From assembly GCA_964016885.1 (NCBI GenBank), contig OZ024748.1, positions 22,444,001 to 22,508,000 of the forward strand: DNA of 64,000 bases, in the 5' to 3' direction. Shown here one piece after another: positions 44,566 through 48,263 of the stretch. This stretch comes from Eledone cirrhosa. Lineage: Eukaryota. The position numbers and the translations under genes are program-made. Below the pieces are notes generated by a model. It ran no database searches. It saw nothing but the letters and a program-made list of their open reading frames with translations, and was not told the origin of the DNA. Within the stretch, counting starts at the first letter, position 1, and each line of letters starts with the position of its first letter.

Positions 44566-45242
44566 GTTTATATTATTTTTTTCTTTTCTCGTGTATCGTG
44601 GTTGTCTCCCCTTCCCGCTTCGTGACGCTATGAAACTTCCTCAGTCAAAAAACTGCTGGAATTTCAAATTTGGCGGTCATTCGATGCGTGAGGGAGCAGC
44701 TTAGCAGACACGATTTTTAACTGCGGTAAGAATTTTTTCTTATATCAAAGTTTAATGGGCTTCCACTGAAGATTTATAAGTGCCCACCTAAATATATTCT
44801 TACATGAATATATGTTAGGCTTCTACATAAACTGGAAACATTCTCCCAATTTGTAGAAAACTTGTAATGAAACAATTGTTTAGAAAGAGAGATTTTAACT
44901 TTAATTATATCTCATAAAATAATACAACTGGCTTTCCACAAAATACATATAGTTAGCACCCCAAACACATAAATTGGGTTATACTAACATATAACCTAAT
45001 GTTTGTTGAGTGAGATGGTTACCAGTCGGAGTAACAACCTTTCGATTGCAAGGCCAATGCTCTAACCACTAAGCCATGTGCCTCCATATATATATATATA
45101 TATATATATATATATATATGAATATAGACATAGAATATTCGAAAATATTCTGTATGTTTATAATAAACATTTTGAAGACCTAATCGCTATAGAATAGAAT
45201 ACGTCACGTATTACAATTAGATTCTCGATAAAAGCAAGGGAA

Positions 45243-45285
45243 GTAATCTACGCGTTTCATTCTCGTTAGAAATCATCAGGACTAC
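45243..45285 (-). ncRNA. Type I hammerhead ribozyme (first of six minus-strand copies; others at 45553, 45863, 46173, 46483, 46793)
   Basis: The reverse complement reads GTAGTC-CTGATGA-tTTCT-aacg-AGAAt-GAAAC-GC-GTA-GATTAC. Confidence 0.85.
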
Positions 45286-46940
45286 ATATCCAGTGCTTTT
45301 ATCGAGAATGACACAGCTAGAGACTTATAGAATACTTAGCTGTGTACAGGAACTGGTTTGAAAGAGCGGTTGCCGGTCCGGCAGAAATTAGAAATTGGAA
45401 TAAATGCTCTGAAATAGCGATATATATGTGAATATAGACATAGAATATTCGAAAATATTCTGTATGTTTATAATAAACATTTTGAAGACCTAATCGCTAT
45501 AGAATAGAATACGTCACGTATTACAATTAGATTCTCGATAAAAGCAAGGGAAGTAATCTACGCGTTTCATTCTCGTTAGAAATCATCAGGACTACATATC
45601 CAGTGCTTTTATCGAGAATGACACAGCTAGAGACTTATAGAATACTTAGCTGTGTACAGGAACTGGTTTGAAAGAGCGGTTGCCGGTCCGGCAGAAATTA
45701 GAAATTGGAATAAATGCTCTGAAATAGCGATATATATGTGAATATAGACATAGAATATTCGAAAATATTCTGTATGTTTATAATAAACATTTTGAAGACC
45801 TAATCGCTATAGAATAGAATACGTCACGTATTACAATTAGATTCTCGATAAAAGCAAGGGAAGTAATCTACGCGTTTCATTCTCGTTAGAAATCATCAGG
45901 ACTACATATCCAGTGCTTTTATCGAGAATGACACAGCTAGAGACTTATAGAATACTTAGCTGTGTACAGGAACTGGTTTGAAAGAGCGGTTGCCGGTCCG
46001 GCAGAAATTAGAAATTGGAATAAATGCTCTGAAATAGCGATATATATGTGAATATAGACATAGAATATTCGAAAATATTCTGTATGTTTATAATAAACAT
46101 TTTGAAGACCTAATCGCTATAGAATAGAATACGTCACGTATTACAATTAGATTCTCGATAAAAGCAAGGGAAGTAATCTACGCGTTTCATTCTCGTTAGA
46201 AATCATCAGGACTACATATCCAGTGCTTTTATCGAGAATGACACAGCTAGAGACTTATAGAATACTTAGCTGTGTACAGGAACTGGTTTGAAAGAGCGGT
46301 TGCCGGTCCGGCAGAAATTAGAAATTGGAATAAATGCTCTGAAATAGCGATATATATGTGAATATAGACATAGAATATTCGAAAATATTCTGTATGTTTA
46401 TAATAAACATTTTGAAGACCTAATCGCTATAGAATAGAATACGTCACGTATTACAATTAGATTCTCGATAAAAGCAAGGGAAGTAATCTACGCGTTTCAT
46501 TCTCGTTAGAAATCATCAGGACTACATATCCAGTGCTTTTATCGAGAATGACACAGCTAGAGACTTATAGAATACTTAGCTGTGTACAGGAACTGGTTTG
46601 AAAGAGCGGTTGCCGGTCCGGCAGAAATTAGAAATTGGAATAAATGCTCTGAAATAGCGATATATATGTGAATATAGACATAGAATATTCGAAAATATTC
46701 TGTATGTTTATAATAAACATTTTGAAGACCTAATCGCTATAGAATAGAATACGTCACGTATTACAATTAGATTCTCGATAAAAGCAAGGGAAGTAATCTA
46801 CGCGTTTCATTCTCGTTAGAAATCATCAGGACTACATATCCAGTGCTTTTATCGAGAATGACACTCAAACCAGTTCCTGTACACAGCTAAGTATTCTATA
46901 AGTCTCTAGCTGTGTCATTCTCGATAAAAGCACTGGATAT

Positions 46941-46983
46941 GTAGTCCTGATGATTTCTAACGAGAATGAAACGCGTAGATTAC
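46941..46983 (+). ncRNA. Type I hammerhead ribozyme (first of four plus-strand copies; others at 47251, 47561, 47871)
   Basis: Stem I is GTAGTC/GATTAC, extended past an internal loop by the perfect 16-bp helix attctcgataaaagca/tgcttttatcgagaat. It has CTGATGA and GAAA cores, stem II TTCT/AGAA and palindromic stem III ACGCGT. Predicted cleavage is after the GUA ending at 46977. Confidence 0.87.
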
Positions 46984-48263
46984 TTCCCTTGCTTTTATCG
47001 AGAATCTAATTGTAATACGTGACGTATTCTATTCTATAGCGATTAGGTCTTCAAAATGTTTATTATAAACATACAGAATATTTTCGAATATTCTATGTCT
47101 ATATTCACATATATATCGCTATTTCAGAGCATTTATTCCAATTTCTAATTTCTGCCGGACCGGCAACCGCTCTTTCAAACCAGTTCCTGTACACAGCTAA
47201 GTATTCTATAAGTCTCTAGCTGTGTCATTCTCGATAAAAGCACTGGATATGTAGTCCTGATGATTTCTAACGAGAATGAAACGCGTAGATTACTTCCCTT
47301 GCTTTTATCGAGAATCTAATTGTAATACGTGACGTATTCTATTCTATAGCGATTAGGTCTTCAAAATGTTTATTATAAACATACAGAATATTTTCGAATA
47401 TTCTATGTCTATATTCACATATATATCGCTATTTCAGAGCATTTATTCCAATTTCTAATTTCTGCCGGACCGGCAACCGCTCTTTCAAACCAGTTCCTGT
47501 ACACAGCTAAGTATTCTATAAGTCTCTAGCTGTGTCATTCTCGATAAAAGCACTGGATATGTAGTCCTGATGATTTCTAACGAGAATGAAACGCGTAGAT
47601 TACTTCCCTTGCTTTTATCGAGAATCTAATTGTAATACGTGACGTATTCTATTCTATAGCGATTAGGTCTTCAAAATGTTTATTATAAACATACAGAATA
47701 TTTTCGAATATTCTATGTCTATATTCACATATATATCGCTATTTCAGAGCATTTATTCCAATTTCTAATTTCTGCCGGACCGGCAACCGCTCTTTCAAAC
47801 CAGTTCCTGTACACAGCTAAGTATTCTATAAGTCTCTAGCTGTGTCATTCTCGATAAAAACACTGGATATGTAGTCCTGATGATTTCTAACGAGAATGAA
47901 ACGCGTAGATTACTTCCCTTGCTTTTATCGAGAATCTAATTGTAATACGTGACGTATTCTATTCTATAGCGATTAGGTCTTCAAAATGTTTATTATAAAC
48001 ATACAGAATATTTTCGAATATTCTATGTCTATATTCACATATATATCGCTATTTCAGAGCATTTATTCCAATTTTTATATATATATATATATATATATAT
48101 ACATATATATATATATATATACATATATATATATATATATACATATATATATATATATATACATATATATATATATACATATATATATATATATATATAT
48201 ATATATATATATATATATATATATATATATATATATATATATATATATATATATATATATATA

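What the first reader, a model, noticed from the sequence alone, without database searches (positions are those of the whole stretch)
45121..48074. Candidate retrozyme: 310-nt tandem monomers, each with a complete hammerhead ribozyme
Seen: about 9.5 virtually identical 310-bp units inserted in (TA)n, non-coding, each containing GTAGTC-CTGATGA-tTTCT-aacg-AGAAt-GAAAC-GC-GTA-GATTAC (10 HHRs). Stem I continues through an internal loop into a perfect 16-bp helix. Established: metazoan non-LTR retrozymes are tandem repeats of a few hundred nt with type I HHRs that self-process into monomeric circular RNAs, and they are proposed to be mobilised by Penelope-like elements. Inference: this is a young retrozyme whose multimer reflects rolling-circle reverse transcription of a 310-nt circRNA. 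I do not know of such a family described in cephalopods, but I cannot search.
Basis: partly seen in the sequence, partly recalled or inferred. Interest (0 to 1): 0.92.

Follow-up and report, generated by a model that had tools for sequence, protein, structure and literature searches.

The report
Ribozyme circle inserted as mirrored arrays
This is one copy of a young, very abundant mobile repeat carrying a self-cleaving RNA motif, and its back-to-back arrays bear the insertion marks of Penelope-like retrotransposons, which points to the enzyme type that copies such RNA circles into animal genomes.

Summary
The 310-bp units and ten hammerheads are real. A 35-mer of the unit occurs 19,303 times genome-wide. 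48 of 51 elements examined are inverted. In 46 of 46 with both ends visible, one arm ends near unit position 243 and the other near 278-283. This is the 30-40 nt 'tail' of Penelope-like elements (PLEs), known to mark two RT start sites. Central junctions fall at random phase with microhomology, arms reach 19 units, and variants are nearly always in every unit of both arms or in one unit only. Best reading: a non-coding non-LTR retrozyme whose 310-nt circle is copied round and round by a PLE enzyme, primed from both ends of a cut in (TA)n. Not shown: expression, cleavage, circular RNA, or which PLE family is the partner. The hammerhead has a weak helix III and a U-U pair, and Rfam does not detect it.

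The parts
45086..45118 (.). left (TA)n target tract
45119..46864 (-). left arm: 5.63 units of the 310-nt monomer. Its 3' end (45119) is unit position 243, the short PLE-type end; its 5' end (46864) is position 48. Unit position 1 = window 46865
   Evidence: 0 mismatches to the periodic reference
46865..48074 (+). right arm: 3.90 units. 5' end at position 1; 3' end (48074) at position 280, the long end carrying the ~37-nt tail
   Evidence: 1 mismatch (47860)
46864..46865 (.). central head-to-head junction of the two arms (blunt at this locus)
46941..46983 (+). type I hammerhead, first of four on + (others 47251-47293, 47561-47603, 47871-47913); predicted cleavage 3' of 46977, 47287, 47597, 47907
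   Evidence: activity not tested
46793..46835 (-). type I hammerhead, first of six on - (others 46483-46525, 46173-46215, 45863-45905, 45553-45595, 45243-45285)
   Evidence: activity not tested
46917..47005 (+). 16-bp helix (46917-46932 with 46990-47005) closing the ribozyme domain; repeated in each full unit
47035..47124 (+). structured domain (unit ~171-260) conserved in sister family B; holds the short start site (243), with the long start site (278-283) just downstream; likely RT recognition region (inferred)
48038..48074 (+). tail: sequence between the two 3' end positions (unit 244-280), terminal only in this arm
48075..48264 (.). right (TA)n-rich target tract

Best explanation
A young, non-autonomous non-LTR retrozyme that uses a Penelope-like element's RT/GIY-YIG enzyme. 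SHOWN from DNA: dispersed high-copy family, (TA)n target, two inverted multimer arms, one short and one long 3' end per element, random central junctions with microhomology, one sequence variant per insertion. INFERRED: (1) arrays are transcribed; (2) neighbouring hammerheads pair through their palindromic helix III, cleave as dimers after position 113, and monomers are ligated into 310-nt circles; (3) a PLE protein, probably a dimer, binds the structured domain, cuts both strands of (TA)n and primes reverse transcription from both DNA ends at two sites about 35-40 nt apart; (4) because the template is a circle, each site runs round it up to ~19 times; (5) the two cDNA 3' ends join by microhomology or short patches and are filled in. 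My odds by step: PLE-mobilised 0.93; single-monomer template 0.85, circular RNA specifically 0.75; both arms made on one RNA by one dimer 0.55.
For: 19,303 exact unit 35-mers, control 0; 671 and 870 exact (TA)n-abutting ends at positions 243 and 278. 48 of 51 elements inverted; 46 of 46 with both ends visible have one short (241-252) and one long (270-285) end, including 10 of 10 picked without regard to ends. PLEs carry an inverted 5'-truncated copy and a 30-40 bp tail at one end (PMC8557442, passages). A purified PLE cuts and extends both strands of AT-rich DNA, starts at two internal sites that bound the tail, and is modelled as a dimer (PMC11167929, parts 1-2 of 4). A PLE family of this genome shows the same inverted short/long ends with a 38-nt tail. 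5' ends are uniform (KS p 0.36; 3 of 96 at positions 110-120 against 3.4 expected); 85 of 92 arms exceed one unit. Of 137 variant rows, 71 are in all covering units, 57 in one unit, 6 partial, 3 covered once; 13 of 15 sample-private fixed variants are on both arms; 22 haplotypes among 49 records. Junction overlap of 2 nt or more in 20 of 33 junctions without an insert, against 18% expected. Fixed variants are enriched in the ribozyme at tolerated sites (10 of 23 against 5 of 57 singles, p 8e-4). Sister family B keeps the fold with a different sequence.
Against: No RNA evidence of any kind. Rfam finds no hammerhead. Helix II has pairing probability of only 0.13-0.15 in the circular monomer ensemble, and U-U replaces the usual G10.1-C11.1. 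Only 1 of 9 Xenopus retrozyme dimers cleaved in vitro (10.64898/2026.07.22.740005). For the purified PLE, uncleaved RNA was the main substrate, which keeps a linear template possible. The partner family is not identified: the two best of 20 comparisons reach only p 0.013 each and point to different families. Absence of fixed variants in the catalytic core (0 of 23 against 4 of 57) is too small a count to be significant. 40 of the 51 elements were selected on having a short end, and 50 of 51 lie on one contig.
Confidence: 0.75

Rival explanations
1. The PLE enzyme copies long uncleaved linear multimer transcripts of existing arrays; no circle is involved and the ribozyme is dispensable.
For: Uncleaved RNA was the dominant substrate of a purified PLE (PMC11167929). 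The ribozyme looks weak. A homogeneous source array would also give homogeneous daughters.
Against: A new mutation could not become fixed in all units of both arms without a one-unit bottleneck, yet 71 of 137 rows are fixed and only 6 partial. The 3 single-unit variants seen in two loci sit on different haplotypes. 0 of 48 central junctions are shared. Arrays could only shrink over generations.
Confidence: 0.1
2. Reiterative copying of a cleaved linear monomer: the RT jumps from the RNA's 5' end back to its 3' end, telomerase-like.
For: PLE RTs are sister to telomerase RTs (PMC8557442 abstract). It would give the same one-unit bottleneck.
Against: 510 crossings of the cleavage bond show only 2 non-fixed changes within positions 111-116, and 5' ends do not pile up there. 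Jumps between different molecules would mix haplotypes, which is not seen.
Confidence: 0.07
3. Short PLE-type insertions that expanded afterwards by unequal crossing-over or slippage and were homogenised by gene conversion.
For: Local amplification is the model discussed in 10.64898/2026.07.22.740005. Four rows are truly partial (2 of 30 three times, 2 of 7 once). Sister family B has mostly short arms.
Against: Stepwise expansion predicts many intermediate-frequency variants; the spectrum is all-or-one. Single-unit changes number only 57 in 159,901 bp, leaving little time for expansion at about two thousand loci.
Confidence: 0.05
4. The unit is the terminal repeat (pLTR) of an unseen full-length PLE, or the inversions are assembly fold-backs.
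For: Only 51 of roughly 2,000 elements were read. Its ribozyme core resembles that of a PLE terminal repeat in this genome.
Against: The unit wraps onto itself; PLE protein matches lie only outside the arrays. Arms differ in length and in 3' end by a fixed rule, and flanks are not mirrored beyond control levels, which fold-back reads would not give.
Confidence: 0.03

Closest known systems
Metazoan non-LTR retrozymes (coral, mussel, axolotl; PMC7229834, read: results parts 1-2 of 3, discussion, passages)
   Same: Non-coding tandem units of 150-450 bp, low GC, one type I hammerhead per unit, dispersed at thousands of copies. Helix III with a palindromic loop as in axolotl HHR_Amex1; U-U at the base of helix II as in HHR_Amex2.
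   Different: There the RNA, cleavage and circles were shown; here none was tested. The main text has no 'inverted' and the parts read describe no fixed ends; it mentions target-site duplications, which cannot be discerned here in (TA)n. Its supplement could not be read.
EN+ Penelope-like elements, Neptune/Nematis type (PMC8557442 passages; PMC11167929 parts 1-2 of 4)
   Same: (TA)n target, inverted 5'-truncated arm, 30-40 bp tail at one end, hammerhead with palindromic helix III.
   Different: No RT/GIY-YIG frame. Each arm is a multimer of one 310-nt unit running through the cleavage site many times, not a truncated linear copy.
Xenopus retrozymes related to PLE terminal repeats (bioRxiv 10.64898/2026.07.22.740005, parts 1-3 of 5 read, through the discussion)
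   Same: Proposes that animal retrozymes are non-autonomous PLE derivatives.
   Different: Its evidence is co-occurrence and sequence trees. The text has no 'tail' or 'target site', and 'inverted' only in a reference; no mollusc was sampled. Its supplements are closed.
Non-autonomous Chlamys elements such as MRC1 (PMC8557442, passage)
   Same: Non-autonomous PLE dependants, often with multicopy head-to-tail insertions.
   Different: Green algae; Chlamys mostly lack canonical hammerheads; they resemble their autonomous partner at the 3' end, which could not be shown here.

Membership tests
metazoan non-LTR retrozyme | tandem units of 150-450 bp, low GC, non-coding | tested here: met
   310 bp, about 34% GC, longest frame 59 aa
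metazoan non-LTR retrozyme | type I hammerhead in every unit (helix I 6 bp, II 4 bp, III 1-2 bp with palindromic loop; PMC4209133 passage) | tested here: met
   10 cores in 9.5 units, anatomy; deviation: U-U at 10.1-11.1
metazoan non-LTR retrozyme | match to an Rfam hammerhead model | tested here: not met
metazoan non-LTR retrozyme | dispersed multi-copy family without LTRs | tested here: met
   PBS and PPT were not searched for
metazoan non-LTR retrozyme | self-cleavage of monomer or dimer transcripts | not testable with these tools
   needs in vitro transcription
metazoan non-LTR retrozyme | expressed as a monomer-length circular RNA | tested here: inconclusive
   no run on record as RNA was offered; contigs cannot tell circle from tandem DNA; DNA variant pattern supports a monomer template
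metazoan non-LTR retrozyme | loop I-loop II tertiary contact | not tested
   stem I has internal loops and loop II is 4 nt, but the contact was not modelled
autonomous EN+ PLE | RT plus GIY-YIG reading frame | tested here: not met
   none in the unit or contiguous with an arm's 5' end in 51 elements
PLE-mobilised insertion | inverted 5'-truncated copy joined at the 5' end | tested here: met
   48 of 51; 11 of 13 loci in the listing
PLE-mobilised insertion | 30-40 bp tail at one end only | tested here: met
   46 of 46; modal ends 243 and 278
PLE-mobilised insertion | AT-rich or (TA)n target | tested here: met
   selected for at one end in 40 of 51 elements
PLE-mobilised insertion | 3' sequence shared with a named autonomous partner | tested here: inconclusive
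   5 PLE ends compared with families A and B, best p 0.013 in 2 of 20 comparisons; the tail match weakens in most copies of that family
simple local satellite | confined to one or few loci | tested here: not met

The most novel reading that the evidence does not exclude
These arrays are a genomic record of rolling-circle, twin-primed reverse transcription: one PLE dimer holds one RNA circle, and its two active sites start about 37 nt apart, each from one end of a double-strand cut, and both circle the template many times before their cDNAs join. This would tie animal retrozymes to PLE enzymes by mechanism rather than co-occurrence, and would also explain the inverted-copy-plus-tail layout of PLEs in general.
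Probability: 0.45. Interest if true: 0.85.

Novelty: new variant of a known kind. Interest (0 to 1): 0.7.

Why it matters
A 2020 review states that metazoan retrozyme repeats show no conserved motif from which their mobilising element could be deduced (PMC7761336, passages), and the steps that make PLEs' tandem and inverted structures are described as undefined (PMC8557442). Here about two thousand near-identical young insertions (estimate) carry the PLE end signature on multimers of a ribozyme unit. They name the start sites, the target and a 310-nt substrate, and the same genome holds a candidate PLE with a long open frame. That makes both open questions testable with the published in vitro PLE assay. 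The family also fills about 6 Mb (0.2%) of the genome with multi-kilobase inverted repeats.

Tried and rejected
Rfam: no hammerhead hit. DNA search of the own genome with the monomer returned nothing, not even this window, because common words are skipped; exact patterns were used instead. A 52-bp inverted match between the two flanks (45034-45085 and 48265-48316) first looked like a fold-back duplication; rejected because that 52-mer has 8,892 exact copies and flank matches of 20 nt or more were few (3 direct, 5 inverted in 46 loci; 11 of 300 control comparisons). No target-site duplication could be called in (TA)n. Sequencing runs: no RNA holder listed; 6 runs of unknown kind under 4 organism labels in 4 studies hold the unit. 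Four were laid: contigs close the 310-nt cycle in all four, which tandem DNA also does, so this says nothing on expression. Partner search: the sister-family match beside a PLE in L083 proved to be a separate insertion. Family C shares the ribozyme core but has a tail of about 68 nt. The L104 tail resemblance rests on a minority variant. Scripts ended in errors and were redone; the L104-family ribozyme count returned nothing. Earlier scan findings: nothing returned. Literature searches listed no paper whose title or abstract start describes inverted, tail-bearing retrozyme arrays or a cephalopod retrozyme; most subscription papers, Repbase/Dfam entries and the supplements of PMC7229834 and the 2026 preprint were not visible, so prior description is not excluded.

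Full report
Observation. The region holds about 9.5 units of period 310 between (TA)n tracts. It is two arrays: 45119-46864 reads on the minus strand (5.63 units) and 46865-48074 on the plus strand (3.90 units); against a periodic reference there is one substitution in 2,956 bp. I number the unit from window 46865. Ten hammerhead cores are present, six on minus and four on plus, with predicted cleavage after position 113. No frame exceeds 59 aa.

The ribozyme. Helix I is 6 bp with one G-U, helix II 4 bp above a U-U at 10.1-11.1, and helix III 1-2 bp around the palindrome ACGCGU, which self-pairs at -7.5 kcal/mol. This is the layout that PMC4209133 calls canonical for metazoans and describes as cleaving poorly as a monomer but folding into an active dimer in tandem repeats (passages); axolotl retrozymes show both the palindromic loop and the U-U (PMC7229834). 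The region folds beyond chance (z -5.9; linear monomer z -3.9, 1 of 100 shuffles as good; circular z -3.1, 1 of 50). Against: Rfam finds no hammerhead, and in the circular ensemble helix II forms with probability only 0.13-0.15 while helix I is 0.86 or more. Activity is inferred, not shown.

Family size. Exact patterns give 4,204 copies of the ribozyme 37-mer, 19,303 of a 35-mer from the conserved 3' domain, and 671 and 870 ends abutting (TA)n at positions 243 and 278; reversed controls were 0. That is about 6 Mb and, at about 10 units per element, roughly 2,000 elements (estimate).

Architecture. I read 51 elements: the window, the 10 loci in the first 100 rows, and 40 from the first 45 rows that were not already fetched. 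All but the window lie on contig C1, and the 40 were selected on a short end. 48 of 51 are inverted with 5' ends meeting; 3 are single arms. In 46 of 46 with both ends visible, one end is short (241-252, 44 at 243) and the other long (270-285, 25 at 278); 2 had an end beyond the fetched stretch. The 11 elements not selected on ends give 10 inverted, all 10 short plus long. The listing shows minus-then-plus hits in 11 of 13 loci. The 96 central 5' ends are uniform round the unit (KS p 0.36) with no excess at the cleavage site; 85 of 92 arms exceed one unit and the longest of these is 18.9. Of 48 junctions, 15 carry an insert of 1-28 nt; of the other 33, 20 overlap by 2 nt or more against 18% expected (p 8e-8).

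Why this is a PLE signature. PLE insertions carry an inverted 5'-truncated copy and a 30-40 bp tail often at one end only, and a CX2-5CxxC linker is suggested to guide them to (TA)n (PMC8557442, passages). A purified PLE cuts and extends both strands of AT-rich DNA and starts reverse transcription at two internal sites that bound the tail; it is modelled as a dimer (PMC11167929, parts 1-2 of 4). This genome has many GIY-YIG elements (10,596 candidates, 150 scored). One, L104, has a 1,096-codon open frame with an RT match, such a linker and a C-terminal endonuclease. Its family sits in (TA)n with a 38-nt tail and shows inverted short/long pairs in L104 and in 3 of the 19 other loci fetched with 1.5-kb flanks; those 19 best hits are 99.7% alike, a selected set. 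It is the best candidate partner by tail length, target and age, but sequence does not prove it: only 2 of 20 comparisons reach p 0.013, one for this tail and one for the ribozyme of family C, and most copies of the L104 family lack the base that helped the match.

Template. Of 137 variant rows, 71 are in every covering unit, 57 in one unit, 6 partial and 3 covered once. Two of the 6 partial rows are a deletion fixed in one of two neighbouring elements analysed together, leaving 4. Of 70 fixed rows outside that record, 62 are seen on both arms, as are 13 of 15 private to one locus in this sample; private in 51 elements does not mean private in the genome. The 49 single-element records fall into 22 nested haplotypes, no central junction is shared among 48, and 510 passes through the cleavage bond show 2 non-fixed changes. 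Each insertion therefore passed through one monomer sequence that was continuous across the cleavage site, as a ligated circle would be. Inherited variants cluster in the ribozyme domain (10 of 23 types against 5 of 57 singles, p 8e-4) and all ten sit at tolerated places: N7, loop II, a helix I wobble or bulge, and a U>A that restores the 10.1-11.1 pair in 8 loci. None hits the core, but 0 of 23 against 4 of 57 is not significant.

Sister family. A related family B (2,612 candidates, best hits about 95% alike) has a 315-nt unit, seen whole at 2 loci, 66% identical to this one against 52% for shuffles. It wraps round its unit, ends at the matching two places and is often inverted, but its arms are short. 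Its helices I and II and the long helix differ in sequence and still pair, and it keeps the U-U. This supports selection on the RNA fold.

Mechanism and rivals. Shown: family, target, inversion, end rule, junctions, one variant per insertion. Inferred: transcription, dimer cleavage, ligation, and twin-primed rolling-circle synthesis by a PLE enzyme. Linear multimer templates, template jumping, later expansion, an unseen full-length PLE and assembly error are weighed in the Rival explanations section; none explains the all-or-one spectrum, the clean cleavage bond and the end rule together. The main gap is RNA: the run search offered no RNA holder.

Comparison and verdict. It works like a PLE insertion and meets the DNA-level features of a non-LTR retrozyme; the RNA-level features are untested, and it is not an autonomous PLE. 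That retrozymes depend on PLEs has been proposed from co-occurrence (PMC7229834) and from sequence trees (10.64898/2026.07.22.740005). I found no description of the inverted, tail-bearing multimer layout in the texts read or in the listings of eight searches; unseen supplements and repeat databases may hold one. New variant of a known kind, interest 0.7.

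Noticed in passing
window ~6830-7070, ~12900-13300, ~53150-53420; L104, L107, L111, L114, L156: Family C: small head-to-head insertions in (TA)n with a hammerhead core close to that of the 310 unit and a tail of about 68 nt. In L156 it is the 3' end of an element with a GIY-YIG-like frame. Many copies stop just 5' of the ribozyme core.
   Followed up: partly
L083:2445-2866; L116-L145: Family B: older 315-nt sister retrozyme with the same two 3' ends, short arms and a GUU cleavage triplet.
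   Followed up: partly
L102 (G000:C1:145868500-145877500), L109, L114: PLE terminal repeats carry hammerhead-like cores starting UUGAAAA in place of CUGANGA, with a palindromic helix III; L102 has a 938-codon RT plus GIY-YIG frame between two terminal repeats.
   Followed up: partly
run X1 loose ends at window 47093 and 47128; run X3 at 47131: Contigs matching part of the conserved 3' domain and then diverging suggest further sister families.
   Followed up: no
The unit is held at 0.89-1.00 of sampled words by runs under four different organism labels; close species, mislabelling or transfer were not distinguished.
   Followed up: no
window 3528-3580 and 4807-4860 (+): Two isolated minimal hammerhead-like motifs of other families.
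   Followed up: no
window 44000-44085 and 49052-49265: Other small inverted structures in (TA)n: a near-perfect palindrome of about 80 bp, and a 51-bp unit repeated 3.3 times followed by an inverted copy; possibly tiny PLE-type insertions.
   Followed up: no
window 27403-35488: 8-kb G-skewed satellite with periods 46 and 124; further short arrays at 35926-36428 (16 bp) and 38413-38853 (40 bp).
   Followed up: no
window 45034-45085 and 48265-48414: Copies of a common interspersed repeat, SINE-like by my recollection, flank the element on both sides; the 52-bp head has 8,892 exact copies genome-wide.
   Followed up: yes
L042, L054, L055, L068, L081: A few elements have extra internal register shifts or a second short inversion near the centre, suggesting template switches during joining.
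   Followed up: no
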